This document shows, in pieces, positions 1-64,000 of a stretch of 64,000 nt of DNA (the first letter of the stretch is position 1; every line of letters starts with the position of its first letter). A model generated the notes under the pieces. That model ran no database searches, was not told the DNA's origin, and was given only the letters and a program-made list of their open reading frames with translations. This DNA is from Deinococcales bacterium (GTDB taxonomy: Bacteria; Deinococcota; Deinococci; Deinococcales; JAAFIG01). The DNA lies in contig JAYWGM010000075.1 in the NCBI GenBank assembly GCA_043778225.1, positions 1-64,000 of the forward strand. Direction: 5' to 3'. The position numbers and the translations under genes are program-made.

Positions 1-68
1 TGCTTGTAATGCTTCTCGAGTTCTTCAGTTGTGTGGTGCGCGGTCAGAGGTGTGCCTAATCTTGACAT
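1..68 (-). mobile_element. Possible N-terminus of an IS630-like transposase (partial, runs off the window edge)
   Basis: Minus-strand ATG at 68 reads MSRLGTPLTAHHTTEELEKHYK, resembling the 'HxxxEELExxY' N-termini of IS630-family HTH transposases. Only 22 codons are visible. Confidence 0.35.
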
Positions 69-82
69 TCCGTATTATCTAC

Positions 83-1273
83 CTAAAGTTGGTATAATAC
101 CTCGAGACCCGTCAAGCCACGGATTGAAAAATTGGGGCGGTACTCGAGGGCTTGGGCTGGCACAGTAAAGTTCGGGAAGTTTGCAGCTAATCGCTCCAAG
201 AAAACCTGCATCTCGAGCCTTGCCAGTGGCGCACCAAGGCAATAATGAGCGCCACTGGCAAACGCCACGTGTTGACTGGCGTTGCTGCGGGAAATATCAA
301 ATGTATCTGGATACTCAAATTTAGTTGGGTCGCGGTTGGCAGCCCCAAGCATCAAAGAAAGGTGTGTGCCTTTGGGTAAACTTTGCTCGAGCCATTGGCT
401 ATCGGCGGTCAGCACTCGGCTGGTGGCTTGGACTGGTGTCACAAAACGCAGGCACTCTTCGGTGGCATTGACCACCAATTCTGGATGCCCGAGTAACTTT
501 TGCCATTCTTGTGGCTGACCCGAGAACGCCAGCATTGCCCCAGCGATCAGATTGGTGGTTGTTTCAAAGCCAGCCGCCAGCAAAAGCGCAGCATTTGCCA
601 ACAATTCTTCGCGGCTGAGGCGTTCTCCTTGGGCTTCGGCTCGAGCCATTGCCCCCAGCACCCCAGAGGCGTTTTGCATTTTCATGGTTTCGGCAGATTT
701 TTCAAAGTAACCTAACATCTCGGCTATGTGTTGCTGGATGCCCTGAGCGTTATTTTCGTTGAGCGAACTGCCATCCAGCACAATCACCAGTGCATCTGCC
801 CAATTTCTAAAAGCCACGCGGTCTACATCCTCGAGTCCAAGCAATTTGGCAATCACCAGCATTGGCAGTGGCACAGCCACATTGGTTAAAAAATCTCCGC
901 CATGGGTCGTGTGGTACTCGAGCAATTCATCGGTTATGGTCGCAATGGTGGCTCGAGTTTCTGCTACGGCTCTGGGCGTGAAGGCTTGCGAGACCAAACC
1001 ACGTAAGCGCAAATGCGAATCGGCATCGTGGGAAAGCATCATCGGTTGTAGTAAATTCTGGCTAAACCAATTTTCTGTTTGCCCAAGGCGGTTGGCGCTG
1101 GCGTTGGGGTGCTTAAACATCGCATTGACGGCATCCAAGCCAAAAGCAAAAGCACTGTTCCAACTTGGCATTTGCACCAATTGCCCATGTTCTCGAGCTT
1201 TGGCATAAGCAGGGTACGGATTGGCTAAGGCTTCGGGTTGAAAAAGCGCTTGTAAGTCTGACTCGAGATTCAT
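83..1273 (-). CDS. Cytochrome P450
   Basis: AGFETT I-helix, EECLR (ExxR), FASGAHYCLG heme motif. Start moved to MNLESDL, which follows TAGAAT-N7. Confidence 0.95.
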   Translation of the reverse strand: MNLESDLQALFQPEALANPYPAYAKAREHGQLVQMPSWNSAFAFGLDAVNAMFKHPNASANRLGQTENWFSQNLLQPMMLSHDADSHLRLRGLVSQAFTPRAVAETRATIATITDELLEYHTTHGGDFLTNVAVPLPMLVIAKLLGLEDVDRVAFRNWADALVIVLDGSSLNENNAQGIQQHIAEMLGYFEKSAETMKMQNASGVLGAMARAEAQGERLSREELLANAALLLAAGFETTTNLIAGAMLAFSGQPQEWQKLLGHPELVVNATEECLRFVTPVQATSRVLTADSQWLEQSLPKGTHLSLMLGAANRDPTKFEYPDTFDISRSNASQHVAFASGAHYCLGAPLARLEMQVFLERLAANFPNFTVPAQALEYRPNFSIRGLTGLEVLYQL

Positions 1274-1318
1274 AGGCGCTATTCTAAAGCAACTTTGACA
1301 CGCCACACCGCGTATTTA

Positions 1319-1382
1319 GATTCATCTGCGACATGAAACGCATGATTCATCTGCGACATGAAACGCATGATTCATCTGCGAC
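1319..1382. repeat. Tandem repeat, 25-bp unit GATTCATCTGCGACATGAAACGCAT x2.6
   Basis: Units start at 1319, 1344 and 1369 (partial), with no spacers. Confidence 0.95.
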
Positions 1383-1444
1383 TTTGGTCGGATGACAAGT
1401 CTCGAGTTTAGATTCTACACTTGCGGCAGTTCTTAGGAGGATAT

Positions 1445-2107
1445 ATGCAAACCATAACGAATCGCAATCAACAACTCGGCTGGGTTTTACTTGGTGTGGC
1501 TGGCTTGGTTTTACTCAGCACCATCAACGGTGCAGTCGAAGGCTTTTTTTGGGTAGGTGCAATTGCTTTGGGCTTTTTTTATGCCTACCGCCAAACTGGG
1601 CAACATGGACTGGTTGTGCCAGCCGGTGTTTTAGCAGGCATCTCGGCAGGAATTTTGCTCGAGGGAATCACCCCGTTTGATGGGATTTTCTTGGTTGGTT
1701 TTGCGGCTGGCTTTTGGGGCATAAAATTTCTCGAGCCACGTCGTCATGCTTGGGCGCAATATCCAGCGTGGGTTTTTACGGCTATTGCTGGCATTGTTTT
1801 TGTGTCTGCCAATGCTTGGCTGGTGGCGCTTTCTTTGGTCGGGCTTGGGGTCTATTTGCTGGGTAAGAAACCCACCATCGAAACCCAAATCATCGAACAA
1901 CCACAGCCAACAAAGCTCGAGCGTTTAATGCAGTGGCGAGCCGAAGTTGCCCAAAAAGCTGGACTGCCAGAACCCGAAATTCTGCGCGGCGAACAACTCG
2001 AGCGCTTGGCTAAAATGACTCCAGAAAACGTGGATGCGATGTTTGGTGTTCTCGATGCCGCCCAAATCGAGCGCTATGGCAAAACCTTGTTGAGTGTTTT
2101 GGGCTGA
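1445..2107 (+). CDS. Membrane protein with C-terminal HRDC-like domain
   Basis: AGGAGG RBS. About six hydrophobic helices, then LMQWRAEVAQKAGLP..ILRGEQLERLA...IERYGKTLL, an HRDC signature. Confidence 0.75.
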   Translation: MQTITNRNQQLGWVLLGVAGLVLLSTINGAVEGFFWVGAIALGFFYAYRQTGQHGLVVPAGVLAGISAGILLEGITPFDGIFLVGFAAGFWGIKFLEPRRHAWAQYPAWVFTAIAGIVFVSANAWLVALSLVGLGVYLLGKKPTIETQIIEQPQPTKLERLMQWRAEVAQKAGLPEPEILRGEQLERLAKMTPENVDAMFGVLDAAQIERYGKTLLSVLG

Positions 2108-2108
2108 G

Positions 2109-2170
2109 AGGTAAAGGATTAAAGGTAAAAAGGGCTTTCCACTTTTTACCTTTTTACCTTTTTGCCTTTC
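2109..2170. repeat. Degenerate 8-bp GGT(A/T/C)AAA(A/G) repeats arranged as an inverted hairpin
   Basis: ggtaaagg/ggtaaaaa arm followed by a ctttttacc arm. Same family at about 10.8, 30.0 and 34.0 kb. Confidence 0.8.
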
Positions 2171-2186
2171 CATTATGCTCTTACTC

Positions 2187-2906
2187 ATGACCCCCGAACG
2201 TGTCGAATTACTTGGATTGCCTTTAGACCTGATTACCCTTGAGCAAACCCTCGAGTTACTGGGAACTTGGACAAACCAACCAAACGCCAAAAAAACTGTC
2301 GTCACTTCCAACCCTGAATTTGTGGTGCAGTGCCAAACCGAGAGCGCTTTTGCCGCAGATATTCGTGCCGCCGATTTAATCACCGCCGACGGCATTGGCA
2401 TGGTGCTGGCGGGTAAACGTTTTGGACTGGTTGTCCCTCGAGCCACTGGGGTGGACATTGCACGCGGTCTGATGGAAAAACAAGGCTCGAGTCTGCGGGT
2501 CTTTTTTTTTGGGGCAAAGTCTGGAGTGGCGCAACTGGCAGCCGAAAAATGTGCTGCTTTGTACGACATTCAGATTGCTGGAGTGCAAGATGGCTACTTT
2601 ACTCCAGACCAAGAAGCCACGATTGCCACCCGAATTCTCGAGGCGGATACCCATTTTTTGCTCACTGGCTTGGGTGGCGGCAAACAAGAGCGGTTTAATG
2701 AAAAACGCGTGGCTCGAGTCTCTATTGGCTGTGGTGGCACAATAGATGTGCTGGCTGGCGTTGCGCCACTTGCGCCTCAGTGGATTCGCGGCATTGGCTT
2801 TGAATGGCTGTGGCGAATCGTTAAATTCAAGCGCTGGCAGCGTGGTCTCAAGCTGCTCGAGTTTGCGGTTTTGGCACTGACTCGAGCTAAGGGTTTTGGT
2901 TCATGA
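2187..2906 (+). CDS. WecB/TagA/CpsF family glycosyltransferase
   Basis: VVTSNPE, ADGIG, GLGGGKQE, GCGGTID, FEWLWR motifs. Start follows TATGCT-N7. Confidence 0.9.
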   Translation: MTPERVELLGLPLDLITLEQTLELLGTWTNQPNAKKTVVTSNPEFVVQCQTESAFAADIRAADLITADGIGMVLAGKRFGLVVPRATGVDIARGLMEKQGSSLRVFFFGAKSGVAQLAAEKCAALYDIQIAGVQDGYFTPDQEATIATRILEADTHFLLTGLGGGKQERFNEKRVARVSIGCGGTIDVLAGVAPLAPQWIRGIGFEWLWRIVKFKRWQRGLKLLEFAVLALTRAKGFGS

Positions 2907-3559
2907 TTTCGGTTTTGATTCCAGCCGCTGGAAGTGGTTTGCGCCTTGGCTTAGGAGCGAAAGCGCTACTCGAGTTAAATGGTATGACCTTGCTCGAGCG
3001 TTCAATCAATGCCTTTGTAGAGATTGCCGATGAAATTATTGTGGCGTTGCCCAAAGATTGTCTCGAGTTACCACTGCCAAAAGCTCGAGTGATTGCTGGC
3101 GGTGCAACCCGCCAAGAAAGTGTCGAAAATTTGCTCGAGGCAGCCCGTGGCGATGTGGTGCTGATTCATGATGCGGCGCGACCGTTTTTGCCCAAAGCCG
3201 TGATTGCTCGGGTTCTCGAGGCTGTGGCGCTGTGTGGTGCAGCCACCGCAGCGCTGCCGTCTGCCGATACACTGGTTCTCGAGTCTTTTGGGCAGTGGGG
3301 TACAATATTAGATCGCAGCCAGATTCAAGCTGTGCAAACACCGCAAGGTTTTCGGCGCGAACTGCTGCTCAAAGCTCATGCCAGAGCCAAACTTGAAGCG
3401 GTCAGTGCCACCGACGACGCAGGTTTGGTGGCGCGGCTTGGTTTGCCCGTGGCGCTGGTCTTGGGCGATGAGCGACTTTTTAAGGTCACTAAAGCTGGCG
3501 ATTGGGCATTGGCACAAGCCTTTGCAGGTGTTTGGGATGCCGCAGATTCAGTACACTAA
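2903..3559 (+). CDS. ispD: 2-C-methyl-D-erythritol 4-phosphate cytidylyltransferase
   Basis: IPAAGSGLRLG, GGATRQESV, IHDAARPF, VQTPQGF, TDDA motifs. Confidence 0.95.
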   Translation: MISVLIPAAGSGLRLGLGAKALLELNGMTLLERSINAFVEIADEIIVALPKDCLELPLPKARVIAGGATRQESVENLLEAARGDVVLIHDAARPFLPKAVIARVLEAVALCGAATAALPSADTLVLESFGQWGTILDRSQIQAVQTPQGFRRELLLKAHARAKLEAVSATDDAGLVARLGLPVALVLGDERLFKVTKAGDWALAQAFAGVWDAADSVH

Positions 3560-3564
3560 TACTT

Positions 3565-4416
3565 ATGAAACGTATTTACGAATTTGCTCCAGCCAAAATC
3601 AATCTTGGTCTGGCTGTTACGGGTCGGCTCGAGAATGGTTATCACACCCTCGATACGCTTTTTTGTACTTTGGATGTTGGCGATACTTTATGGCTAGAAA
3701 TAACCGAATCGGGCATCGAACTCGAGGTGCTTGGTTCAGACTTAGCCGCCACCCCAGATAACTTGGTCTACCGAGCGGCTGCCCTGTTTCTCGAGGTGGC
3801 TGGCATCCAATCAGGGGTGCGCTTAACGCTTGAGAAGCGCTTACCGATTGCGGCGGGGTTGGGCGGCGGCTCGAGTGATGCAGCCGCCTGTTTGCGTGGT
3901 ATGCAGCGCTTATTTGCGACCCATCTGGATTTATCTGACTTGGCGCTTAGGCTTGGGGCGGATGTGCCATTTTTGCTGCTCGGTGGTGCGGCTCGGGCAT
4001 CTGGTATTGGCGAAATTCTCGAGCCAATGGTGCTACCAGAGATTTACGTGGTCTTGGCAAATCCAAAGGTTGGCATCAGCGCCAAAGAAGCCTATTTGGG
4101 TTTGCAGGGGCGTTTTGGGGCAAAACTCGAGGTTTTGGGCATTCTCGAGGCGCTGGACAGAGGAGAAGCCCCGCCCTACCGCAATGACCTTGAAGTACCA
4201 GTTCTCGAAGCCTATCCAGTGGTGCAAGAAGTCAAAAATGCCCTAAAAAGGGCTGGCTTATTTGGGGTCTTGATGAGCGGCTCTGGAAGCACCTGTTTTG
4301 GTTTAGCGCCAAGTTTAGAAGTGGCAAAAAAAGCTGCCCAAGATTTAAGTCTCGAGCAGCCAGATTGGTGGGTTTGTGCCACTACTTATTTTCAAAGTCA
4401 ACTTGAACCGTATTAA
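3565..4416 (+). CDS. ispE: 4-diphosphocytidyl-2-C-methyl-D-erythritol kinase
   Basis: APAKINLGL, PIAAGLGGGSSDAA, LGADVPF, MSGSGS motifs. Confidence 0.95.
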   Translation: MKRIYEFAPAKINLGLAVTGRLENGYHTLDTLFCTLDVGDTLWLEITESGIELEVLGSDLAATPDNLVYRAAALFLEVAGIQSGVRLTLEKRLPIAAGLGGGSSDAAACLRGMQRLFATHLDLSDLALRLGADVPFLLLGGAARASGIGEILEPMVLPEIYVVLANPKVGISAKEAYLGLQGRFGAKLEVLGILEALDRGEAPPYRNDLEVPVLEAYPVVQEVKNALKRAGLFGVLMSGSGSTCFGLAPSLEVAKKAAQDLSLEQPDWWVCATTYFQSQLEPY

Positions 4417-5512
4417 ATTGGGTGTTCTTAACCTCGAGCATCACAAATGGGCTGGTCAGGGCTTGGGTCACGGCGCGTCCGGGAATTGGTGAAGTCATTT
4501 CGATGCTCAGTTTTAAGGTGCTGCCCTCGAGGGTGGCGCTTTTGTAAGCAATTCCATAGCCGCCAGTTGGTTTTTGACCCGAGAAAACGGTAATCACGCG
4601 GCTGTTGCTAAAGTCTATGCGCGGTGCGTTTGGCAAAGGAATTTGGTTGCCAGCAATCATTTTCCAAGTTGCCAGAAAATCCATTTCACTTTCGTCAAAA
4701 CGGGTGTAGGAATTATCTTGGGCATAGGCGGCGTTATAGCCCGTCTCGAGGGTCTGGACAATTGGAATAATAATGCTTGTATTGGCAACTGGTGGTGTGA
4801 CGACTGGCTTTGGGGTTGGCGTGACCACTGGTTTTGGGGTCGGAGCGACGATTGGTTTTGGCGAAACTACCGCCACACTCTTTGGTACGCCATACTGGAC
4901 TGCCAATAACGAACGGCGGTAAGCACTGGGGGCTGGGTCTAGCTCGAGGCGGGCATCGGGGGCATCGGCTTCAAGCAGGGTTGCCAACAGCAATTCGCCT
5001 TTAGGGGTTAGGTATTTTGCCAGTGCCAAGGCTTCTTCGCTCGAGAGCAAGCCAGCCCCAAGCGGCGAGAGTCTGGGGGTTGGCTTCAATTGCATGGCTT
5101 CGCCAACTTTGAGATTGCGAGCCACCGTAAACCATTTTGCGCCGTCAAAATAATAGACGCTTTGCAGGTTGCGTTTGGCACGAATTTGAATCTGTTCGCC
5201 AATAAAGTTTCCATCAAAAGCATTCAGTTCTTGAGCCTCGAGTTTTAAGGTATTTGAGCCATTGACCGCCAAAGTGCGCGGCACAACAAAACCATTGAGG
5301 GCAAAAGTAATTGGCTTACTGAGTTCGAGCCGCCCGTTGTTCCACTGCACTGTTTGTGGTTCACCGCTAAAAACACCATAGCGTTCACTATTTTTTGGAT
5401 GATACAAAGCAATTTCCGAGAGGCTGTAGCTGCTGACAGCTTGTTGTTGTCCGACGACACTGCTTAGTCCGAGGGCGGTTGTGATTGCCAGAATGGGCAA
5501 AATTGGTTTCAT
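4382..5512 (-). CDS. Exported protein with PrcB C-terminal domain
   Basis: Signal peptide, Pro/Thr linker, C-terminal IDFS..VFSGQKPTGGY...TQALTSPF (PrcB_C). Confidence 0.8.
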   Translation of the reverse strand: MKPILPILAITTALGLSSVVGQQQAVSSYSLSEIALYHPKNSERYGVFSGEPQTVQWNNGRLELSKPITFALNGFVVPRTLAVNGSNTLKLEAQELNAFDGNFIGEQIQIRAKRNLQSVYYFDGAKWFTVARNLKVGEAMQLKPTPRLSPLGAGLLSSEEALALAKYLTPKGELLLATLLEADAPDARLELDPAPSAYRRSLLAVQYGVPKSVAVVSPKPIVAPTPKPVVTPTPKPVVTPPVANTSIIIPIVQTLETGYNAAYAQDNSYTRFDESEMDFLATWKMIAGNQIPLPNAPRIDFSNSRVITVFSGQKPTGGYGIAYKSATLEGSTLKLSIEMTSPIPGRAVTQALTSPFVMLEVKNTQFNTVQVDFENK

Positions 5513-5561
5513 GAGTCCTATCCTAGTTGCGATTGGCACTTTGCAGATGTGGATTTACTCA

Positions 5562-7745: not shown

Positions 7746-7761
7746 TTTGATTAAAACAGAA
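7745..7761 (-). promoter_or_regulatory. Candidate RDRM (DdrO operator) overlapping the polB -10 and start codon
   Basis: TTCTG-TTTTAAT-CAAAA versus RDRM pattern TT[AC][CT]G-N7-C[AG][GT]AA (one mismatch). Overlaps the -10 of TTGGCT-N18-TATTCT. Confidence 0.55.
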
Positions 7762-7812
7762 TACTCTTTTCTCGGGCAAAAAGCCAAAGTGACTCTGAAC
7801 CGATTCTAAAGC

Positions 7813-7839: not shown

Positions 7840-7861
7840 GGTTTATCAATTCACTGTTTTT

Positions 7862-13709: not shown

Positions 13710-13745
13710 TGAGCGCTCGAGTGTATAGCTTAGCTCGAGCGCTCA
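13710..13745. terminator. Hairpin built from two CTCGAG sites (putative terminator)
   Basis: TGAGCGCTCGAG...CTCGAGCGCTCA 12-bp stem just after the lipoprotein stop codon. Confidence 0.6.
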
Positions 13746-24445: not shown

Positions 24446-24473
24446 GACCTCGAGGCAGCCGTGCCTCGAGGTC
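24446..24473. terminator. Hairpin built from two CTCGAG sites
   Basis: GACCTCGAGGCA-gccg-TGCCTCGAGGTC followed by a short T run. Confidence 0.55.
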
Positions 24474-41492: not shown

Positions 41493-41520
41493 GAGGCTCG
41501 AGACCCCCTACTCGAGCCTC
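41493..41520. terminator. Hairpin built from two CTCGAG sites
   Basis: GAGGCTCGAG-N8-CTCGAGCCTC. Confidence 0.5.
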
Positions 41521-45458: not shown

Positions 45459-45988
45459 AACCCATTTTTTTAATCATGGGAACACCTGCCGCAGGCAAAA
45501 GCACCATTGCTAAAGCCTTGACGCAGCGCTTTGAGAAGGGGCTGCATATTCCCGTGGATGACCTGCGCCACATGGTCGTCTCGGGCTTGTCAGACATGGG
45601 TTTTGAAGTTCCACCCGCCACGCTCGAACAGGTGCGCTTGGCTCGAGAAGCCGCTTCGAGCATGGCAAGGATTTACTCAGATAACGAATTTGCAGTTGCT
45701 ATAGATGATTTTTGGTACGGTGATAAACCCGACGAAGTGTACGCGCAAAAAATCGGGCAACGTGTGACCCGAGTTTTACTGCTCCCAAACCTCGAGACAA
45801 CAGTGCAGCGCTTGTACTCGAGAAACCCAGAAGAGGGCAGTTTTAAGCAGATTCTCGAGCAAGCGATTCGGCAATTGCATGTCCAGATTGCAGTGCATCC
45901 AAAGATTAATTGGCTGGTGATTGACTCGAGCGGTTTGAGTGTTGAACAGACTGTAGATAAAATCCTTGCGAGAACGGAAAGAACTTGA
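45455..45988 (+). CDS. P-loop kinase/AAA_33-like protein
   Basis: GTPAAGKST, VDDLR. ATGA overlap with the P450 stop. Confidence 0.8.
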   Translation: MKPIFLIMGTPAAGKSTIAKALTQRFEKGLHIPVDDLRHMVVSGLSDMGFEVPPATLEQVRLAREAASSMARIYSDNEFAVAIDDFWYGDKPDEVYAQKIGQRVTRVLLLPNLETTVQRLYSRNPEEGSFKQILEQAIRQLHVQIAVHPKINWLVIDSSGLSVEQTVDKILARTERT

Positions 45989-46057
45989 AGACAAGGCTTT
46001 TGATGACGTTATACAAAGAGCCCAATCCCTAGAAGCGTTCCGTCCCCGTCTTGAGTC

Positions 46058-46540
46058 CTAGAGGTGTTCTTGCAACCGATCTTGCACCCGCCAGAGTAGT
46101 TGAATCAGTTTCTCTTGCTCTTTTGGACTCAGCACCTCCATCCATATTTTTTCTGCGCGGTGAATCGGTACGCGCACTTCGTCCGCTACCCTGCGCCCCT
46201 CATCGGTGATTTCAACAAGGAGCATTCGGCGGTCCGACGGGTGCGGTTTGCGCTGGACGTAACCCCGGCGTTCAAGTGAGTCGAGCAATCCGGTGATGGT
46301 CGCTCGGGTCACGACCAGTCTATCGCTAATCTCGTGCGGCGAGAGGGGACTGTTCGCATTTGCCAATGCGATCAGTGCCAGCCCCGTGGCGATACTGAGG
46401 TCGAACGGACGCTTAATTGTCTCGATGTGACTGAGCAAAAGATCATTGGTGCGGACGATGTTCAAGACGCACTCTGTGGCTTTTCTGCTACTCTCGGGCC
46501 AGCGTTGCTCGAATCCTTCGGATAGTGTTATGTGTTGCAT
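46058..46540 (-). CDS. MarR family transcriptional regulator
   Basis: TRATITGLLDSLERRGYVQR..DRR..ITDEG. Confidence 0.93.
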   Translation of the reverse strand: MQHITLSEGFEQRWPESSRKATECVLNIVRTNDLLLSHIETIKRPFDLSIATGLALIALANANSPLSPHEISDRLVVTRATITGLLDSLERRGYVQRKPHPSDRRMLLVEITDEGRRVADEVRVPIHRAEKIWMEVLSPKEQEKLIQLLWRVQDRLQEHL

Positions 46541-46760
46541 GGTGTGCTATTCTCCTTCTTTTTACTATTGGCACAGATAATCAGCACCAAGATAGTTAGG
46601 GACTTGACAAATTTAGTTTGACCCCTTATTATCACCTTACAAGCAATCAGGTCGGGTGTAAAGATACATTCGTAATCACGCGACACACATGCAAGGCCTC
46701 TGCTGAGAAACGACCTATCTGGCTGGTTAAAACTTGGCGCTCTGAATACTCGAAGTGTCT

Positions 46761-46876
46761 AAGAAAATACCTCACGCAATCATTTTCGCATTTACCAAGA
46801 TTTTGACATCAAAACCCCAACATCCCCGAACGCCCTTGAAGTCGAAAGGAGCGAAGTGTCAAGTATTGTCTGTCCT
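46761..46876 (+). repeat. Duplicated non-coding block, copy 1 (copy 2 at 48503-48660)
   Basis: 49 bp identical (46761-46809 = 48503-48551), plus a ~65-bp similar block. Confidence 0.9.
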
Positions 46877-46937
46877 AGACCATTGTTTGCATCCATGATA
46901 CCCACAACCCCCAATGCCGAGCTGGGCTGGAAGTCCA

Positions 46938-46971
46938 CGCGACGCTCACGCAACGCACCCTTTGGCATACT
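46938..46971 (+). promoter_or_regulatory. Degenerate SARP-type direct repeat plus extended -10
   Basis: CGCGACGCT-ca-CGCAACGCA-N8-CATACT. Confidence 0.55.
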
Positions 46972-47084
46972 GGCATCGTTCACCTATTGAATACCAGCCG
47001 TCAGTGTGGCTCTTGTGTTCGCAGCAAAGGAGAATACGTATTTTGGCACTCGACCCCAAGCCCTCTAGCCCAAAGGAGAAAAGC

Positions 47085-47369
47085 ATGACTACCCTATTTG
47101 TAAGACACCAAGTGAGCAATTTTGATAACTGGAAAAAGATCTACGACGAGCTTGGAGCTACTCGCGAAAAGATGGGGGTCAGCGCAGCCAGCGTCCACCG
47201 TGATGGTACCGACCCCAATACAGTAATGGTTACCCACCGGTTTCCCAACATCGGTGCAGCCACCGCTTTTGCCAACTCCGAGGAACTCAAAGCTGGCATG
47301 GGACGGGCTGGGGTTACCAGCCAACCGGAGATGTGGTTTACCGACGACGTTGAACACACCGCGCACTAG
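47085..47369 (+). CDS. Small ABM/cyclase-like dimeric alpha-beta barrel protein
   Basis: AAGGAG RBS; VRHQVSNFDNWKKIYD...DPN...ELKAGMGRAGV..PE. Confidence 0.8.
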   Translation: MTTLFVRHQVSNFDNWKKIYDELGATREKMGVSAASVHRDGTDPNTVMVTHRFPNIGAATAFANSEELKAGMGRAGVTSQPEMWFTDDVEHTAH

Positions 47370-47601
47370 ACCAAAGCTAGAACACTCGCTCGAGACCACC
47401 TGAATTTTGCAAGCAACCATCGAGCCAGTCTGGGATATTCTTTCCGACCCCTACACTGGCTCACTTGATTCCCAACGTTTTGTAAGGTGCGCTCGAGCAC
47501 CGCACTACCTACCTATTTTGGAGTTTTATACCGAAGGTACGGTATTACTAATTAGGCTGGTGTCAGTAAACTCACATTAGAAATAACCAAGGTGTCTGAA
47601 A

Positions 47602-48123
47602 ATGCTAACTATTTCTCAAGTCAACTCAGAAGCCGAAATTGTAGCTGTTCAAGAACTAATGCGCGAATACGCAACGTGGGCTTTCACACTCATCCCGGGC
47701 AGTAATGAAGCGCCTACTTGGGAGGGATTCGACGAGGAGTTGGCGACATTACCCGGTATTTATGCACCACCAGGGCGTTTACTACTAGCCATGCAAGATG
47801 GAAAGCCAGCAGGGTGTGTATGTCTCAAAGCACATGATGCCAATACCAGTGAACTCAAGCGGCTCTACGTGCGTCCCATCTTTCGGGGACAAAACATTGG
47901 TCAGCAATTAGTCAAAATTCTTGTTAAAGAGGCACGTCAATCCAGATATCAACGGATCGTGCTGGATAGCCACGCTTCGATGAAAAAAGCACATGCAATC
48001 TATTTGGAAGTTGGATTTAGATTGGTGAGCGCCCCGAATGATTTTCCAGAGGAACTCAAACCAGTTGTGGTGTTCATGGAGTGTGATCTATCTGATGCAA
48101 CCAATGAAAATGAAGTAGATTGA
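47602..48123 (+). CDS. GNAT family N-acetyltransferase
   Basis: ELATLPGIYAPP, ELKRLYVRP.FRGQNIG. Confidence 0.92.
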   Translation: MLTISQVNSEAEIVAVQELMREYATWAFTLIPGSNEAPTWEGFDEELATLPGIYAPPGRLLLAMQDGKPAGCVCLKAHDANTSELKRLYVRPIFRGQNIGQQLVKILVKEARQSRYQRIVLDSHASMKKAHAIYLEVGFRLVSAPNDFPEELKPVVVFMECDLSDATNENEVD

Positions 48124-48502
48124 AAGTGTTACAGACTTTATTCGCACTGCGCCCAACTCAGCGTGTAGCCGACCCGTCCAGTTGCATCCAGAGAAGGCTT
48201 TTTTTGCACAATAGATAACGCAAAACCAAAAATATTTGAACCACTATGTCAAAACATGATTTGCCACTGAGACTGTTGGTAATGTCCAAAAAAACCTAAC
48301 AAAGCAGGGATCTATTCAAATGATTAGATGATCTTCCGTTTCATACACAACCCTCTTGGAATTTACATAAGCAATATCAGTTTTTTTCTGTTTACGACAC
48401 TGATTTTCTGGTTCCTCGAGAAATCAATCAAATCAATTCACAACTTGCTTAAAAATACACTCTTCCCAAAGTTGCTTGGCAGTACACAATTGCAAAAAAC
48501 TC

Positions 48503-57560: not shown

Positions 57561-58133
57561 ATGACTGCACTGCTTGAACCTCCAATTACCAGAGGTGCAA
57601 TTCCAATACCGCTCATGCGCGTGGATTTAGCCCATTATGACCGTATGATTGCGGCTGGTGTGTTCGATGACCAAAAAGTGGAGTTGTTAGACGGTCTGAT
57701 TTTGGAGCGTGAACCCATGAAACCTGTTCATTACACTCGAGTTAAACGTATTTATGATCGTTTGCTTAGTCAGTTTTCTGGATTAGCTACGGTGTATTCC
57801 GAAGTTCCGATCGAATTACCGCATGATGGTCGTCCACATCCTGATGTTTTACTGGCTCGAGTTGGCGCAGGCGACGAAAATTACACAATGCCAGAAGATA
57901 TTTTTTTGCTGCTCGAGGTAGCGGATACTTCTTTGGAGCGAGACCGAGAATTCAAGAGTTTTTTATATACAAGAGATTTTATTGGTGAATATTGGATTTT
58001 GAATTTGCGGCTGAATCAACTCGAGGTGTACCGTGAACCAAATGGCGAGGCGTATACTTCTAAATTGGTTTTTCCTTTTGGGGTCAAGGTCGCGTGTTTG
58101 GCTTTTCCAAACCTCGAGATTGATTGGTCATAA
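57561..58133 (+). CDS. Uma2 family putative endonuclease
   Basis: VELLDG, PDV, LEVADTS..DR..K..Y, EYWILN. Confidence 0.88.
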   Translation: MTALLEPPITRGAIPIPLMRVDLAHYDRMIAAGVFDDQKVELLDGLILEREPMKPVHYTRVKRIYDRLLSQFSGLATVYSEVPIELPHDGRPHPDVLLARVGAGDENYTMPEDIFLLLEVADTSLERDREFKSFLYTRDFIGEYWILNLRLNQLEVYREPNGEAYTSKLVFPFGVKVACLAFPNLEIDWS

Positions 58134-58134
58134 T

Positions 58135-58416: not shown

Positions 58417-60171
58417 ATGAAACGAACCCACTATTGTAATGACCTCTCGCAAAGCCACGTCGGTCAAATTGTGACCTTAAACGGCTGGGTTTCTCGAGTG
58501 CGCGAATTCCCCGATACCCGTTTTATTGTGCTGCGTGACCGCTCTGGCATCGTGCAAATTACGGTAGACTCGAGCAATTTATGTTTTGCGATCGCCGACC
58601 AGTGCAAGTCCGAATATGTTCTCGAGGTCGTAGGAATTGTTCAGGCTAGAAGCGAGCAAAATAAATCGGCTGCCTATGCCACGGGTGCAATAGAAATTAT
58701 TCCAACCACTCTCGAGATTTTAGCCAAATCCAAACCCGTACCGTTTCCAGTGGATGGCACGCCAATCACCACCTCCGAAGAAATTCGCTTAAAGTATCGC
58801 TATTTGGATTTGCGCCGTGAGCCTTTGCGCGAAGCCTTAAAGCTGCGCTCTAAAACAATTTCGAGTATTTATCAGTTTTTGGACTCCGAAGGTTTTATCA
58901 GTGTCGAAACACCAATGCTGACCAAATCCACCCCAGAAGGCGCACGAGATTACCTTGTTCCAAGCCGTACCAGTGCTGGCAATTTTTATGCGCTGCCGCA
59001 AAGTCCACAGCTTTTTAAGCAACTTTTGATGATTGCTAATTTTGATAAGTATTTCCAGATTGCGCGTTGTTTTCGTGATGAAGATTTACGAGCCGACCGC
59101 CAACCAGATTTTACGCAACTCGATATTGAGATGAGCTTTGTGGATGTGGACGATGTTCTTTTATTAAACGAACGTTTGATTCAACACGTTTTTAAGCAAA
59201 CCCTAAATGTGGATGTACCTCTCCCCTTGCCGCGTCTAAGCTATGAAGATGCACTTAACCGCTTTGGTTCAGATAAACCCGACCAGCGTTTTGGTCTCGA
59301 GATTCAAGATGTCTCAGGAATCGTTGCAGAAACTGGGTTTGCGGTCTTCAAAACTGCCCTCGAGTCTGGCGGAACGGTACGGGTTTTAACTGTACCAGCC
59401 GAACTCAGCCGTAAACAAATCGAAAGCCTCGAGCAAGTGGCAAAACAAAATGGTGCAAAAGGCTTGGCATGGACAAAAGCCACCGCTTTGGGTTTTGAAG
59501 GCGGAATCGCTAAGTTCCTCTCCCCTGCCGAAGTTGCTTTGTTGCTCGAGCAAACAGGTGCAGTTATAGGGCAGACGCTACTTTTTGGGGCAGATACTCG
59601 AGATACAGCCCTCAAGGCTTTAGGTGCGGTTCGCTTGGCATTGCGCGACGAGTTAAAACTGATTAGCGCAGATTCGCCACGCTTTCACTTTTCTTGGATT
59701 ACAGATTTCCCGTTGCTCGAGTGGGATGAAGACAACCAGCGTTTTACCTTTATGCACCACCCGTTTACCAGCCCGAGTCTGGAAGATATGCACAAATTTG
59801 GAACAGCCGAAATGGGCAGCATGAAGGCTCGAGCTTATGATTTAGTCCTAAATGGTTATGAAGTTGGCGGCGGTAGCATCCGAATTCACCAGCCAGAAAT
59901 CCAAGAAAAAATGTTTAACGCGATTGGTTTTAGCACACTTCAGGCTCGAGAACGCTTTGGGTTTTTTATGGAAGCGCTCGAGTATGGCACACCACCACAT
60001 GGCGGAATTGCATGGGGCTTAGACCGTATGGTGTCAGTCATGGCTGGGGCTGAGACCATCCGCGATGTGATTGCTTTTCCTAAAAACACCAAGGGTATAG
60101 ACATTATGGCAGATGCACCAAGTATCGTGGACGAAAAACAACTGGCGGATTTGCATATCAAATTGCGCTAA
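58417..60171 (+). CDS. aspS: Aspartyl-tRNA synthetase
   Basis: MKRTHYC, RLKYRYLDLR, STPEGARDY, LPQSPQLFKQ, RCFRDED, PPHGGIAWGLDR. Confidence 0.97.
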   Translation: MKRTHYCNDLSQSHVGQIVTLNGWVSRVREFPDTRFIVLRDRSGIVQITVDSSNLCFAIADQCKSEYVLEVVGIVQARSEQNKSAAYATGAIEIIPTTLEILAKSKPVPFPVDGTPITTSEEIRLKYRYLDLRREPLREALKLRSKTISSIYQFLDSEGFISVETPMLTKSTPEGARDYLVPSRTSAGNFYALPQSPQLFKQLLMIANFDKYFQIARCFRDEDLRADRQPDFTQLDIEMSFVDVDDVLLLNERLIQHVFKQTLNVDVPLPLPRLSYEDALNRFGSDKPDQRFGLEIQDVSGIVAETGFAVFKTALESGGTVRVLTVPAELSRKQIESLEQVAKQNGAKGLAWTKATALGFEGGIAKFLSPAEVALLLEQTGAVIGQTLLFGADTRDTALKALGAVRLALRDELKLISADSPRFHFSWITDFPLLEWDEDNQRFTFMHHPFTSPSLEDMHKFGTAEMGSMKARAYDLVLNGYEVGGGSIRIHQPEIQEKMFNAIGFSTLQARERFGFFMEALEYGTPPHGGIAWGLDRMVSVMAGAETIRDVIAFPKNTKGIDIMADAPSIVDEKQLADLHIKLR

Positions 60172-61068: not shown

Positions 61069-61072
61069 GGAA

Positions 61073-62065: not shown

Positions 62066-62135
62066 GCTGCCATTTTTTCAGTTTTTGCTGGTACTTTCTG
62101 CACTGTACACTGCACTTGGGATAAGCTGTTAGACA

Positions 62136-62921
62136 ATGCTGACCCCTGAACACAAACAAAAAGTTCGTCAACTTGCTAGGGATTTTGTCGAAGTTTACGA
62201 TGCCCGAGAGCCTTTTGACCTCGCCAATGCAATTGGCGTAAGGCTCGAGTACGGCGATCTCGGCGATAAGGATGGGGCGTTTGACCCCGAGCGCAATGTG
62301 GTCTTCTTGTCTAAAAAGTCTAGCCTCGAGCGGCAGCGCTTTACCATGGCGCACGAAGTCAGCCACTTTTTAATTTTAGCCGATGATGAATTTTTATCCG
62401 ATTTACACGATGCTTACGAAGGCGATTTACTCGAGGCAAACATTGAAACGCTATGTAACATCGGTGCAAGTGCGATTTTGGTTTCCGAAGAACAACTCGA
62501 GGTGGTTTTAACTCGCTATGGGCAGAGCGCTCGAGCGGTCAGTAAAATTGCCCAGACTTTTGGTATTTCTAAACCCGCCGCCTGTGTGGTGCTGAGCGAA
62601 AAAATGCTTGAGCCAGCCGTGGTGGCAATTTTACGCGCCAAAGGAAAGAACACCACCCGACGCGAAATGCTCCACGATGGAGAAACACCACTTCGCAGCC
62701 TTGAAGTCAGCTTTGCCGCCAAAAGCGAAAGCATGAAGTACACCCTTGCCAACGGCACAATTATTCCTAACGAGCATCCAGCCTATGTGGCACTTGAGAC
62801 AGGCTTACCAATCGAAGAAGAAAGTTACTTGCCTTTTAAGAGCGGCAAAAAAATGCCAGCTTTGGTGGACGCACATTCAGAAGGCAATATCGTCATTGTG
62901 GTCTTTCGTATTGAAGCATGA
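62136..62921 (+). CDS. irrE: IrrE/PprI zinc metalloprotease (radiation response regulator)
   Basis: RQRFTMAHEVSH (HExxH), IETLCNIGASAIL, HTH, C-terminal GAF-like MKYTL..GT.IP..HP, PFKSGKKMPA. Confidence 0.88.
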   Translation: MLTPEHKQKVRQLARDFVEVYDAREPFDLANAIGVRLEYGDLGDKDGAFDPERNVVFLSKKSSLERQRFTMAHEVSHFLILADDEFLSDLHDAYEGDLLEANIETLCNIGASAILVSEEQLEVVLTRYGQSARAVSKIAQTFGISKPAACVVLSEKMLEPAVVAILRAKGKNTTRREMLHDGETPLRSLEVSFAAKSESMKYTLANGTIIPNEHPAYVALETGLPIEEESYLPFKSGKKMPALVDAHSEGNIVIVVFRIEA

Positions 62922-62930
62922 ACAGTGTAG

Positions 62931-62986
62931 TATCATGTGAAATATATCACGATTATACTAATTTCGTGAAATTTTTATTGTGAATT
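62931..62986 (+). repeat. ~55-bp AT-rich dispersed element, copy 4 of 4
   Basis: tatcatgtgaaatatatcacgattatactaatttcgtgaaatttttattgtgaatt, between convergent genes. Confidence 0.85.
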
Positions 62987-63060
62987 TCCCTAGCAAAGTC
63001 AATCCAAGGAAACTCAAGTAGCAAGTAACGACCGCGAGTCTCAAAGATAAAAACGCTTTC

Positions 63061-63786
63061 TTATTTAACAGCTTCAAGCAACCATGCCCGAACATGAATT
63101 TGTGCCGAAAAATGCAGCAGTTCCGGCTTGGGCGGCAATCTAAAGCCGAGCCAATCGGTCATGGTGTTACTCGAGAAATCGGCTTGGGCGGGTTGCAATT
63201 GCCACGGCTGATGGTCAATCTCGCCTCGGAAAATTTGCCCAGTACGGTTAGCACTGTATAAACAATAGCGCTCTGTTAGCCAATGCTCAAGCGAACCTAC
63301 TTGGCTTTGGTAAACTGCACCAGTCGGCTGGTATTGGCACGAAAAATCTGCTTTTGGCTCGGCTTGGTGGGTTCTCTGGCTGGCATAAGTGATGATCTTA
63401 TTTTGACTCAAGACTTGCATTTTTGCATCCATGTAAGGCAGATGAAAACCAAATCGCGCCGCCCGCACGGCAAACAGGTTATTGCAATCGAGCGAAAAAA
63501 ACCAAACACCAGACTTTTTACCGTTCGTCACATAAGTACGAACGTTTAATTCGTCAAAATCCGAAAGCCCCGGCACAGTCAGCCATTTTCGAGGACTGGT
63601 CTGGCGCATTTGAAACGGAACAACGCCAAGCCATGCAAAACCGTCAAAAGTCTCGAGTTGTAAGCCCTTGGGCAGCAGTGGCTCGAGTAGGCTTGGCTTG
63701 ACTGCCCAGTGAGCAAACAGCAAGTTGTGCCACTCCATGTACATCACCCACGGGCGCGAAGGGATTTGCCACGGGCGGTGACTCAC
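63061..63786 (-). CDS. YqjF/DUF2071 family protein
   Basis: HRPW, W.NLLFAHW, ELNVRTYV, GVWFFSLD, WLTERYCLY. GTG start overlaps the upstream stop. Confidence 0.9.
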   Translation of the reverse strand: MSHRPWQIPSRPWVMYMEWHNLLFAHWAVKPSLLEPLLPKGLQLETFDGFAWLGVVPFQMRQTSPRKWLTVPGLSDFDELNVRTYVTNGKKSGVWFFSLDCNNLFAVRAARFGFHLPYMDAKMQVLSQNKIITYASQRTHQAEPKADFSCQYQPTGAVYQSQVGSLEHWLTERYCLYSANRTGQIFRGEIDHQPWQLQPAQADFSSNTMTDWLGFRLPPKPELLHFSAQIHVRAWLLEAVK

Positions 63787-64000
63787 GATAAAAAACGCTT
63801 TTTGAGTTCTGGGGTCGGCATCATACACGAGACTTGCCGACCAAACCACGCATAACGATTTTTGGCAAGGAATTTATAGACAGCATCGCGCACAAATTTT
63901 GGCACAATCAGCAGTGCAAATGCCCAAGACCACGGCGCACCCAAGGCTCGAGCCAAGCGCAAAACCGCCTCCGAACGCGAATAGACCACGCCATTCTCGA
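63783..64000 (-). CDS. DCC-family thiol-disulfide oxidoreductase (DUF393), partial
   Basis: SEAVL..LGAPW..VPKFVRDAVY..AKNRYAWFGR..C.MP; 5' end lies outside the window. Confidence 0.88.
   Translation of the reverse strand, partial: ENGVVYSRSEAVLRLARALGAPWSWAFALLIVPKFVRDAVYKFLAKNRYAWFGRQVSCMMPTPELKKRFLS

What the first reader, a model, noticed from the sequence alone, without database searches (positions are those of the whole stretch)
1..64000. CTCGAG behaves as a highly iterated palindrome, like cyanobacterial HIP1 or a DNA uptake sequence
Seen: CTCGAG recurs about every 100-200 bp on average in the stretches I counted. There are 11 copies in 1-1320, where about 0.3 are expected at ~50% GC, and about 14 in and just before aspS. 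It occurs in all reading frames of conserved genes (LE, SS, xR dipeptides) and in intergenic DNA, so codon use in one frame does not explain it. Known: palindromic 6-mers are usually avoided. Iteration at this level is typical of cyanobacterial HIP1 (methyltransferase-linked) and Neisseria/Haemophilus uptake sequences, and Deinococcota include naturally competent species. Inference: a mechanism such as methyl-directed conversion, biased uptake/recombination or nucleoid protein binding creates or keeps these sites. No methyltransferase gene is in this window.
Basis: partly seen in the sequence, partly recalled or inferred. Interest (0 to 1): 0.82.

Follow-up and report, generated by a model that had tools for sequence, protein, structure and literature searches.

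The report
Hyper-abundant CTCGAG palindrome in Deinococcales
The six-letter palindrome CTCGAG occurs about every 160 bases throughout this uncultured relative of Deinococcus, even where fitting it in changes the protein, so it resembles the still unexplained HIP1 word of cyanobacteria, but no shared methylase like the one that goes with HIP1 was found.

Summary
Confirmed. CTCGAG occurs 381 times in the window against 8.6 expected. The 4.03-Mb genome has 24,877 copies, one per 162 bp. That is 27-fold over composition and 9-fold over a synonymous-codon shuffle. All 13 genomes counted in its uncultured Deinococcales family have one site per 147-233 bp; 48 genomes of four sister families have fewer.

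The force acts on the DNA word itself:
- Density is equal in and between genes, and all three frames are used.
- 69% of Leu-Glu pairs are spelled CTCGAG, and Leu-Glu is 2.3-fold in excess.
- One-off neighbours sit near chance, giving roughly 30-fold odds for the exact hexamer.

In aspS, sites are shared within the family. Foreign islands lack them, and spacing is near-Poisson with repulsion below about 75 bp.

New here: no methyltransferase common to the 19 family genomes was found, and the XhoI-type nuclease/methylase pair of sister families is missing.

I favour a word-specific drive in DNA exchange or recombinational repair (0.35); the agent is unknown. The scan reported this word before, on this genome too. 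I found no publication.

The parts
1..64000 (.). Field of 381 CTCGAG sites, 15-35 per 4 kb, across ordinary chromosomal genes (ispD, icd, tmk, radA, hisS, aspS, an IrrE-like gene, two-component systems)
   Evidence: counts; Pfam content of the ORFs
1..1320 (.).
58417..60171 (+). aspS with 13 sites (8 as Leu-Glu, 4 as x-Arg-x, 1 as x-Ser-Ser). 12 of the 13 positions carry the site in 3-12 of 12 family orthologues; none does in 22 outgroup orthologues. At most positions the encoded peptide differs from the outgroups'.
45925..48415 (.). Site-poor segment: gaps of 1,464 and 923 bp with two interior sites (47389, 47492), bounded by sites at 45925 and 48415. It holds MarR-family and GNAT-family ORFs and has ordinary G+C (0.51 and 0.43).
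13710..13745 (.). Intergenic hairpin with CTCGAG in both arms: 12-bp stem, 12-nt loop
   Evidence: outer extension 6
24446..24473 (.). Intergenic hairpin just after ORF 23822-24439: 12-bp perfect stem with CTCGAG in each arm, 4-nt loop; terminator-like
   Evidence: outer 3 + inner 3 extension; genome-wide pattern
41493..41520 (.). Intergenic hairpin after ORF 41023-41478: 10-bp stem with CTCGAG in each arm
   Evidence: outer extension 4

Best explanation
**What is shown.** CTCGAG is a family-wide word of the HIP (highly iterated palindrome) kind, kept by a fixation bias that acts on the DNA at each site. The exact hexamer is favoured roughly 30-fold over any one-letter neighbour. The bias is similar at synonymous positions and in non-coding DNA, and it also drives amino-acid changes. 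It acts on long-resident DNA only.

**What is inferred.**
- All six letters count and partial words are not enriched.
- Sites behave almost independently of one another beyond about 75 bp. So the bias looks like a molecular drive acting at each site rather than a need for a given spacing.

**My commitment (0.35).** The drive arises when DNA is exchanged or repaired by recombination between kin cells or genome copies, and alleles carrying the word are taken up, kept or copied more often. This is the reading now proposed for HIP1 and established for uptake sequences.

**What it is not.** It does not run through an XhoI-type restriction-modification system. As far as homology searches can tell, it does not run through a conserved orphan methyltransferase.
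For: **The word, not the code.**
- Density is the same in called ORFs (1/162.1 bp) and outside them (1/160.7 bp).
- All three frames are used: 13,056, 4,468 and 4,632 sites.
- 69.2% of 18,870 Leu-Glu pairs are CTCGAG, against 2.1% expected. Leu-Glu is 2.33 times expectation while Glu-Leu is 0.97.
- 56% of [PTAS]-R-[VADEG] and 42% of eligible x-S-[SR] peptides carry the word.

**Exact hexamer.**
- The flanks are near-random. NTCGAG with N other than C is at 0.87-1.37 of expectation.
- Non-coding O/E is 31.7, while the nine one-off classes are at 0.35-2.0.
- My arithmetic gives odds of site against one-off of 22-43 at synonymous Leu-Glu positions and 16-89 (median about 40) in non-coding DNA.

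**Clade-wide and independent of G+C.**
- 13 of 13 family genomes counted have 12,028-33,925 sites; 48 sister-family genomes have 128-10,639.
- Family loci with G+C 0.44-0.62 all show the excess.

**Old and maintained.** In aspS, G000 shares 7-9 of its 13 sites with each of six family orthologues, but at most 1 with each of five sister-family orthologues.

**Resident DNA only.** 10 of the 14 gaps over 1.8 kb have G+C 0.31-0.39, against 0.487 for the genome.

**Per-site independence.**
- The gap coefficient of variation is 0.998, and the variance-to-mean ratio of counts in 1-kb windows is 1.006.
- The chance of the next site per base is flat from about 75 to 250 bp. It is depressed only below about 75 bp. 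Control words reach their plateau by 15-20 bp.

**Precedent, from abstracts only.** HIP1 raises transformation efficiency in Synechococcus PCC 7002 (10.1101/2024.09.10.611283), and HIP1 abundance correlates with type IV secretion system proteins (PMC13756078).

**Competence genes.** ComEC and DprA are present.

**Terminator-like pairs.** 72 close intergenic pairs form extended hairpins, concentrated between convergent genes, as uptake-sequence pairs do in Neisseria (recalled).
Against: - No protein that reads the word has been identified.
- ComEC and DprA ring in 10 and 11 of 14 control genomes, so their presence says little.
- The HIP1 effect on transformation is methylation-dependent (abstract of 10.1101/2024.09.10.611283). 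Here I found no methyltransferase common to the family.
- Known uptake sequences are 9-12 nt, not palindromic and about 1 per kb (recalled). DNA uptake in cultured Thermus and Deinococcus is reported as not sequence-specific (recalled).
- With about 6 sites per kb on every fragment, one more site should add little to uptake, so an uptake drive should weaken itself.
- Density is nearly equal in coding and non-coding DNA and across G+C 0.44-0.62. That could instead reflect a selected set-point, that is, a cellular function.
- Conservation of sites cannot tell a drive from purifying selection.
- The maximal-order Markov O/E of 1.16 is not evidence against, but it gives no support either.
Confidence: 0.35

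Rival explanations
1. **Methyltransferase-coupled repair ratchet (Elhai's model for HIPs).** A resident CTCGAG methylase marks newly created sites, so that mismatch repair fixes site-creating errors and reverts site-destroying ones.
For: - This is the model proposed for HIP1 and the alternate HIPs (PMC4390886, section 3.4 read). It can give a very strong bias and explains why an exact enzyme-type word is enriched.
- The genome has many methyltransferase genes: 23 loci match five Pfam families, and at least 3 of them are fragments or interrupted.
- The short-range drop in site probability resembles the saturation that the model predicts.
Against: **No methyltransferase common to the 19 family genomes was found.**
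- The gamma-class enzyme on C65 is in 3 of 19.
- Orthologues (74% identity or more) of the C5 enzyme on C38 are in 6 of 19, and any C5 match is in 16 of 19.
- N6_N4 is in 16 of 19, with none in the single-contig genome G025.
- D12 is in 16 of 19. Eco57I and N6_Mtase are each in 18 of 19, but as different architectures.
- The C92 enzyme has its only full-length relative (43% identity) in one other genome; 8 of 19 genomes have a match at E <= 1e-5, otherwise short and weak.

**Other points.**
- The methylase that sits beside XhoI-family nucleases in sister families is in 0 of 13 family genomes, and the genomes that have it are not enriched.
- No MutH in this genome and no Vsr in 0 of 19.
- One-off variants are not depleted.

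**Caveats.** These are incomplete MAGs (57-94% complete), specificity cannot be read from sequence, and families outside the five Pfam models were not searched.
Confidence: 0.15
2. **Selected cellular function.** The sites bind an abundant chromosomal protein (nucleoid organisation, replication or segregation), and each site adds a small fitness benefit.
For: - Density is similar in coding and non-coding DNA and across G+C 0.44-0.62 and five genera.
- Sites are conserved within the family.
- Xu et al. argued for selection and a chromosome-structure role for HIP1 (PMC5861425, abstract).
- An orphan CTCGAG methylase with site clusters at the replication origin is known in Nocardia (PMC4752239, passages read).
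Against: - There is no long-range regularity. The chance of the next site does not rise with gap length beyond about 75 bp and falls after 300 bp.
- Islands of 2-5.6 kb without any site are tolerated.
- tRNA genes carry 6 sites where 35 would fit the genome density.
- No candidate protein is known.
- Periodicity at 10-90 kb, as reported for HIP1, was not tested, because the contigs are at most 139 kb.
Confidence: 0.2
3. **Self-protection signal.** In a lineage with heavy restriction-modification traffic, the word acts like an orientation-free Chi site that stops a nuclease on broken self DNA.
For: - Palindrome avoidance is extreme: 34 of 64 hexamer palindromes are below 0.1 of expectation, and GGCC has 131 copies against 14,138 expected.
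- The methyltransferase repertoire is large and variable, which suggests frequent restriction stress.
- The HIP1 preprint mentions a Chi-like effect (abstract).
Against: - The benefit of such a site should grow with the gap it breaks, so spacing should be regular and long gaps avoided. This is not seen.
- Known Chi sites are asymmetric (recalled).
- No nuclease partner was looked for.
Confidence: 0.1
4. **By-product of composition, codon or dicodon preference, or of TCGA frequency.**
For: - CTC and GAG are used codons.
- In high-G+C sister families, part of a 2-10-fold excess over zero-order expectation is codon-driven.
- Maximal-order Markov O/E is 1.16.
Against: - The synonymous shuffle gives about 2,390 sites against 22,156 observed.
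- The same two codons in the reverse order (GAGCTC) occur 22 times in ORFs against about 905 expected.
- Non-coding O/E is 31.7.
- 68% of TCGA are flanked C...G.
Confidence: 0.01
5. **Library, adapter or assembly artefact.**
For: None found.
Against: - Sites lie in frame in conserved genes and are shared at orthologous positions among separately assembled genomes.
- A second sample's contigs reproduce the window.
Confidence: 0.01

Closest known systems
HIP1 (GCGATCGC) of cyanobacteria
   Same: - A short G+C-rich palindrome that is hyper-abundant across a clade, inside and between genes.
- It is conserved between genomes and is not a peptide or RNA motif.
- O/E is 15-300 for HIP1 (PMC5861425, abstract) and 27 here.
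- The mechanism is unresolved in both.
   Different: - This word has 6 letters, not 8, and occurs in another phylum.
- It is denser: 6,174 per Mb here, against 300-2,700 per Mb in Elhai's Table 2 (PMC4390886, passage).
- HIP1 goes with conserved orphan methylases for GATC and CGATCG (Elhai, abstract). No conserved methylase was found here.
- Deviations from the word are not concentrated at its first and last letters.
Alternate HIPs of single cyanobacteria, such as the hexamer GGCGCC in Calothrix PCC 7103
   Same: A palindromic hexamer that stands out from all other hexamers (PMC4390886, passages).
   Different: - Those occur sporadically in single strains and go with a methylase specific for the word (Elhai, abstract).
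- Here a whole family of five genera shares the word, and no such methylase was found.
DNA uptake sequences (Neisseria DUS, Pasteurellaceae USS)
   Same: - A word spread through the genome, including genes.
- It is scarce in foreign islands.
- Pairs sometimes form terminator hairpins.
- Accumulation by molecular drive is possible.
   Different: - Those are 9-12 nt, asymmetric and about 1 per kb (recalled). This is a 6-bp palindrome at 6.2 per kb.
- No uptake bias is known in Deinococcota (recalled), and none could be tested here.
XhoI-type restriction-modification (site CTCGAG)
   Same: The same recognition word. The system exists in the same order: XhoI-family nuclease genes in 4 of 61 genomes (one of them interrupted), each of three intact ones beside a beta-class methylase.
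   Different: - The nuclease and that methylase are in 0 of 13 genomes of the enriched family. The best match in this genome is 24-26% identical.
- Genomes that carry the methylase are not the enriched ones.
Dcm/Vsr very-short-patch repair, which raises CCWGG in E. coli (recalled)
   Same: A known case in which a repair bias tied to a recognition word raises that word's frequency.
   Different: - No Vsr in 0 of 19 family genomes.
- The C-to-T neighbours TTCGAG and CTTGAG are the most frequent one-off words rather than depleted.
- The effect here is far larger.
Orphan CTCGAG methylase with site clusters at the origin in Nocardia (Blow et al. 2016, PMC4752239)
   Same: The same word used by an orphan enzyme for a cellular role (passages read).
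   Different: That case is a local cluster between dnaA and the polymerase III gene, not a genome-wide excess.

Membership tests
Highly iterated palindromes (HIP class) | A short palindrome that is the most frequent, or nearly the most frequent, word of its length and is far over expectation (15-300-fold for HIP1) | tested here: met
   It is the commonest 6-mer, at 26.7 times zero-order expectation and 9 times a synonymous shuffle.
Highly iterated palindromes (HIP class) | Present inside and between genes, in all frames; not a peptide or RNA motif | tested here: met
Highly iterated palindromes (HIP class) | Shared by a whole clade | tested here: met
   13 of 13 family genomes counted. 6 of the 19 genomes held were not counted.
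Highly iterated palindromes (HIP class) | Sites conserved between genomes | tested here: met
   One gene only (aspS): 7-9 of 13 sites shared with each of six family orthologues. No neutral control motif was run.
Highly iterated palindromes (HIP class) | A methyltransferase specific for the word, or its core, is present wherever the word is abundant (Elhai 2015) | tested here: inconclusive
   Leans negative. No methylase common to the 19 genomes was found, and the XhoI-type methylase is in 0 of 13. But methylation was not measured, specificity cannot be read from sequence, and the genomes are incomplete.
Highly iterated palindromes (HIP class) | Periodic distribution at 10-90 kb (Xu et al. 2018) | not tested
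   Contigs are at most 139 kb. Only short-range spacing was analysed.
DNA uptake sequences | Biased uptake of DNA carrying the word | not testable with these tools
   Needs a culture or reconstituted proteins.
DNA uptake sequences | Competence machinery present | tested here: met
   ComEC and DprA are present. This is weak, since they ring in 10 and 11 of 14 control genomes.
DNA uptake sequences | Asymmetric word of 9-12 nt at about 1 per kb (recalled) | tested here: not met
   A 6-bp palindrome with near-random flanks, at 6.2 per kb.
XhoI-type restriction-modification target | XhoI-family nuclease (PF04555) in the genome | tested here: not met
   None in G000; 0 of 13 family genomes, against 4 of 48 in sister families.
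XhoI-type restriction-modification target | The cognate beta-class methylase | tested here: not met
   0 of 13 family genomes at E <= 1e-25. The best tblastn match in G000 is 24-26% identical.
Vsr-type very-short-patch repair drive | Vsr endonuclease plus a C5 methylase; T-containing neighbours depleted | tested here: not met
   Vsr in 0 of 19. C5 matches in 16 of 19. TTCGAG and CTTGAG are at 1.37-2.0 of expectation.

The most novel reading that the evidence does not exclude
The word is a methylation-independent mark of self DNA, read as an exact hexamer by members of the expanded Uma2 family of PD-(D/E)XK predicted endonucleases.

- The family has 11-39 copies in 12 of 13 family genomes, including one copy in this window at 57561-58133.
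- It is also 'highly expanded in cyanobacteria', the home of HIP1 (PMC1274311, passage).
- Of 14 named control genomes, it rings only in Synechococcus, Thermus and Deinococcus.

Such a reader, nicking or protecting DNA at or beside the word during recombinational repair, would give HIP1 and CTCGAG one common mechanism.

Against it:
- Copy number does not track enrichment cleanly across the order. One sister genus has 7-19 copies without enrichment, and two moderately enriched genera have 0-5.
- The HIP1 correlation study does not mention the family in its main text.
Probability: 0.06. Interest if true: 0.92.

Novelty: new variant of a known kind. Interest (0 to 1): 0.78.

Why it matters
HIP1 has been a puzzle for three decades and has been known only in cyanobacteria. 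This is an independent case in another phylum. It has a different and shorter word at two to twenty times HIP1's density, and it is strong enough to rewrite proteins.

That makes general explanations testable by comparison. Whatever explains HIPs should hold in both lineages. If the lack of a family-wide methylase is confirmed by a methylome, methylase-centred models cannot be general.

There are also practical points:
- The word is a sharp marker of native against recently acquired DNA in these genomes.
- It is a strong binning signal for this family in metagenomes.
- It warns that XhoI sites and Leu-Glu statistics are abnormal in these organisms.

Tried and rejected
- **Gain/loss polarity from close relatives.** The five same-genus genomes searched match the window's first 20 kb in scattered pieces, its gene-length stretches at about 70-85% identity. 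This is too diverged to polarise changes.
- **Polymorphism from reads.** Only contigs were served. Run X2's long pieces are identical to the window, and the listed differences come from other contigs. No frequency data.
- **Phages.** I scored 81 loci of 1 kb or more. None of 4 kb or more had the family's profile. The dense ones are high-G+C contigs where GAGCTC is as common, or where the asymmetry comes from GAGCTC avoidance. This says nothing about phages of this family.
- **Mobile repeats.** The assembly holds only 1.6 kb of repeated DNA.
- **rRNA genes.** None found with three conserved motifs.
- **Picking the methylase by its own site density or G+C**, by NCBIfam names or by solved relatives. 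None gives specificity.
- **Site probability against distance to the nearest other site.** The probability that a Leu-Glu is a site rises from 0.32 to 0.85 with distance. This is confounded, because many Leu-Glu pairs exist only because of the word. I rely on the gap analysis instead.
- **Maximal-order Markov expectation**. Uninformative for a word this frequent.
- **Uma2 copy number as a correlate.** Suggestive for the family and two sister genera, but not clean.
- **The 2026 hot-spring epigenome preprint.** It reports methylated CTCGAG shared in a host-phage 'Group 2'. The passages I read do not say which phylum that group is, so I draw nothing from it.

Full report
**Observation.** The window is G000:C75:1-64000 of a 4,029,277-bp assembly in 107 contigs, with G+C 0.487 and 89% completeness.
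- CTCGAG occurs 381 times in the window. 100 dinucleotide-preserving shuffles gave a mean of 8.63 and a maximum of 15.
- Genome-wide there are 24,877 sites, one per 162 bp. It is the commonest 6-mer, at 26.7 times the zero-order expectation.
- The word is exactly six letters. Flanking positions are near-random, with only a mild preference for G before and C after. NTCGAG with N other than C is at 0.87-1.37 of expectation. 68% of all 36,442 TCGA are flanked C...G.

- Shuffling synonymous codons within each called ORF gives 2,311-2,433 sites in five runs, against 22,156 observed. For the window it gives a mean of 37.6 and a maximum of 54 in 20 runs, against 329. This control is conservative, because the genes' codon use is itself inflated by the word.
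- The same two codons in reverse order, GAGCTC, occur 22 times in ORFs against about 905 expected.
- Leu and Glu codon use outside Leu-Glu pairs predicts that 2.1% of Leu-Glu would be CTCGAG. The observed figure is 69.2% of 18,870.
- The maximal-order Markov ratio is 1.16. This says nothing, because the 5-mers that feed the expectation consist mostly of the word.
- My ORF set is ORFs of 100 codons or more resolved greedily: 3,500 ORFs covering 89% of the genome. It is not a gene finder's output. The frame labels printed were swapped; one search gives them correctly.

**It acts on DNA, not on the code.**
- Density is 1/162.1 bp inside called ORFs and 1/160.7 bp outside.
- Frames are CTC|GAG 13,056, xCT|CGA|Gxx 4,468 and xxC|TCG|AGx 4,632.
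- The proteome is bent to fit. Leu-Glu is 2.33 times expectation while Glu-Leu is 0.97. Ser-Ser is 1.58. Val-Glu (0.71) and Met-Glu (0.52) are depleted.
- In aspS, only 1 of the 13 site positions encodes a peptide that most of 22 outgroup orthologues share. Elsewhere the family has Leu-Glu, Ser-Arg-Val or Ala-Arg-Ala where outgroups have other residues.
- Structural RNA resists the word. 69 tRNA/tmRNA genes (5,658 bp) hold 6 sites, where the genome density would give 35.

**Size of the bias.**
- In non-coding DNA (G+C 0.45) the word is at 31.7 times expectation, while its nine one-off classes are at 0.35-2.0.
- From I compute odds of the exact word against a one-off neighbour, relative to neutral expectation. 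They are 22-43 at synonymous Leu-Glu positions and 16-89 (median about 40) in non-coding DNA.
- A simple model fits the overall 27-32-fold excess and the near-normal one-off words. In it, only the complete hexamer has a fixation advantage of about e^3.3 and everything else is neutral.
- The most frequent one-off words are the transition neighbours: CTTGAG (1.41 genome-wide, 2.0 non-coding), TTCGAG (1.37, 1.62) and CCCGAG (1.16, 1.35). This looks like ordinary decay from a large pool of sites. No single cytosine stands out as a deamination hotspot.

**Distribution over genomes.**
- The aspS protein finds 15 loci from uncultured Deinococcales or Deinococcota MAG records at 61-89% identity. All have 16-34-fold excess at G+C 0.44-0.59. 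None of 36 outgroup loci does.
- In a sample of 61 genomes of the order, all 13 of family f1 (five genera) have 12,028-33,925 sites, one per 147-233 bp on rounded sizes, and only 0-568 GAGCTC.
- The 48 genomes of families f2-f5 have 128-10,639 sites.
- Some sister genera show a moderate excess over GAGCTC: 50-113-fold in g6, where GAGCTC is itself nearly absent, then 9.3 in g21 and 5-7 in parts of g13 and g22. Family f3 shows none.
- In aspS, five sister-family orthologues have 0-9 sites and share at most 1 position with G000. Six family orthologues share 7-9 of 13. So the extreme state is a property of this family, and many sites predate its genera.
- Six of the 19 family genomes held were not counted by me.

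**Resident against foreign DNA, and spacing.**
- 10 of the 14 gaps over 1.8 kb have G+C 0.31-0.39; the other four have 0.43-0.47.
- The window has a site-poor stretch, 45925-48415, with MarR and GNAT genes at ordinary G+C.
- Overall spacing is close to Poisson. The gap coefficient of variation is 0.998, and the variance-to-mean ratio of counts in 1-kb windows is 1.006.
- The chance of the next site per base rises from 2.4-2.5 per kb at 7-15 bp to 5.4 at 20-30 bp and 6.0 at 30-60 bp. It reaches a plateau of 7.4-7.7 from 75 to 250 bp, then falls.
- Control words of similar frequency reach their plateau by 15-20 bp.
- The repulsion is stronger in ORFs than between them. A gap of exactly 6 never occurs; it would create GAGCTC.
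- Between genes there is a bump at 20-30 bp. It comes from pairs whose flanks extend the pairing: 22% have 2 or more extra pairs, against about 6% by chance.
- Such extended pairs number 72 genome-wide. They make up 25 of 63 close pairs between convergent genes and 12 of 76 between divergent ones. Three lie in the window. They look like terminators built from the word, but they account for under 1% of sites.
- I see no sign that long gaps are avoided, so nothing points to a required spacing.

**Methyltransferases and nucleases.** G000 has 23 loci matching five Pfam DNA-methyltransferase families; at least 3 are fragments or interrupted. None lies on the window's contig. None proved common to the 19 family genomes.
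- The TaqI_C-bearing gamma enzyme on C65 sits in a defence-island-like context and is in 3 of 19.
- Orthologues (74% identity or more) of the C5 enzyme on C38 are in 6 of 19. Any C5 match is in 16 of 19, with none in G030, G035 or G040.
- N6_N4 is in 16 of 19, with none in the single-contig genome G025.
- D12 is in 16 of 19, with none in G005, which is 94% complete.
- Eco57I and N6_Mtase are each in 18 of 19, but as type I, type IIG or BREX-like proteins of differing architecture.
- The C92 enzyme has its only full-length relative (43% identity) in one other genome; 8 of 19 genomes have a match at E <= 1e-5, otherwise short and weak.

A reference for the word's own enzyme came from within the order.
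- XhoI-family nucleases occur in 4 of 61 genomes: three intact in f4 and one interrupted in f2.
- Each intact one lies convergent with a 340-354-residue N6_N4 methylase. These methylases are 70-73% identical to one another.
- That methylase is found in 11 of 61 genomes of the order and in 0 of 13 of the enriched family. The best match in G000 is 24-26% identical.
- The 11 carriers have CTCGAG:GAGCTC ratios of about 0.8-3.9, no higher than their neighbours.
- Vsr is in 0 of 19, and MutH is not in G000.

These are homology searches in MAGs that are 57-94% complete. They cannot prove that the word is unmethylated. They do remove the obvious candidates.

**Explanation.**
- Shown: a word-specific, DNA-level bias acts at each site, is uniform over sequence classes, is old and family-wide, and is absent from new DNA.
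- Inferred: a protein reads the exact palindrome. The bias is a drive at each site rather than a spacing requirement.
- I commit, at 0.35, to a drive arising in DNA exchange or recombinational repair between kin DNA. This is the reading now proposed for HIP1, from two abstracts: methylated HIP1 raises transformation of Synechococcus PCC 7002 (10.1101/2024.09.10.611283), and HIP1 abundance correlates with type IV secretion system proteins (PMC13756078).
- Against it stand the missing reader, the missing methylase, the very high density, and the reported lack of uptake specificity in cultured Deinococcota (recalled).
- The rivals are Elhai's methylase-coupled repair ratchet (0.15; PMC4390886, section 3.4 read), a selected binding-site function (0.2), and a Chi-like self-protection signal (0.1). 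Composition and artefact are excluded.

**Comparison and novelty.**
- It works like a HIP and meets the descriptive features of that class. It differs in word, length, phylum and density, and in the lack of a recognisable partner methylase. I file it as a new variant of a known kind.
- Four full-text searches found no paper describing it. These combined CTCGAG with 'highly iterated palindrome', with over-represented plus Deinococcus-Thermus, with palindrome plus overrepresented plus genomes, and with six taxon names.
- Subscription journals and supplements were not searched.
- The scan itself has reported the word at least 13 times on other DNA of this family, including another piece of this genome. 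A later check there marked 'part of it fell', and I cannot see which part. As far as the notes show, the XhoI-methylase test, the family-wide methylase survey and the gap analysis are new.

Noticed in passing
whole genome G000: Palindrome avoidance is extreme. 34 of 64 hexamer palindromes are below 0.1 of expectation (GACGTC 1 copy, AGGCCT 1, GGGCCC 1, GGCGCC 3). GGCC has 131 copies against 14,138 expected, and GATC is at 0.13. The genome has 23 methyltransferase loci, and the repertoire differs from genome to genome in the family.
   Followed up: partly
window 57561-58133 (+); genome-wide: A Uma2-family (PF05685) predicted PD-(D/E)XK endonuclease lies between hisS and aspS. The family has 34 matches in G000 and 11-39 in 12 of 13 family genomes. 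Sister genera g6 and g21 have 29-35, genus g9 has 7-19, and all 12 genomes of f4 have none. The family is described as highly expanded in cyanobacteria (PMC1274311).
   Followed up: partly
window 1-105: The first ~100 bases match about 20 places in relative G010 at 90-92% identity, most of them at positions 42-148 of a contig. This is a dispersed repeat that breaks assemblies, and the window's contig starts in it.
   Followed up: no
window 7808-7846: A G+C-rich hairpin element (8-bp stem) recurs at 89-100% identity at many places in four same-genus genomes. It is a small dispersed intergenic repeat without the word.
   Followed up: no
window 10804-10924 and about 2136-2146: Contigs of both runs join these intergenic places to one another and to other DNA, which indicates further dispersed intergenic repeats.
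   Followed up: no
window 5562-7787 (-): A 741-residue family B DNA polymerase with an RNase H-like exonuclease domain, conserved in same-genus genomes at 71-75% DNA identity.
   Followed up: no
window 62136-62921 (+) and 17662-18990 (+): An IrrE-type (Peptidase_M78) ORF and a RadA-like ORF, which fits a Deinococcus-type radiation/desiccation response.
   Followed up: no
G000:C19:9937-12769 and genome-wide: ARAGORN finds 69 tRNA/tmRNA genes, many for a 4-Mb genome. At least four lie within 3 kb on C19, which looks like a tRNA array. Four of the six tRNA genes that carry the word are there.
   Followed up: no
L078 = G000:C65:6000-19662: Defence-island-like run after valS: a reverse transcriptase, DUF4276 plus an AbiEii-like ATPase, a HicB-like antitoxin, a YhcG/DUF1016 nuclease, a 264-residue ORF with no Pfam match, a 650-residue gamma methylase with a MerR-like N-terminus, and a PIN protein.
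   Followed up: partly
L228 = G016:C1:1089000-1102000: The XhoI-family nuclease gene of this sister-family genome is interrupted (1 TGA, 1 TAG), and no close homologue of the partner methylase was found there. This looks like a decayed CTCGAG restriction-modification system.
   Followed up: partly
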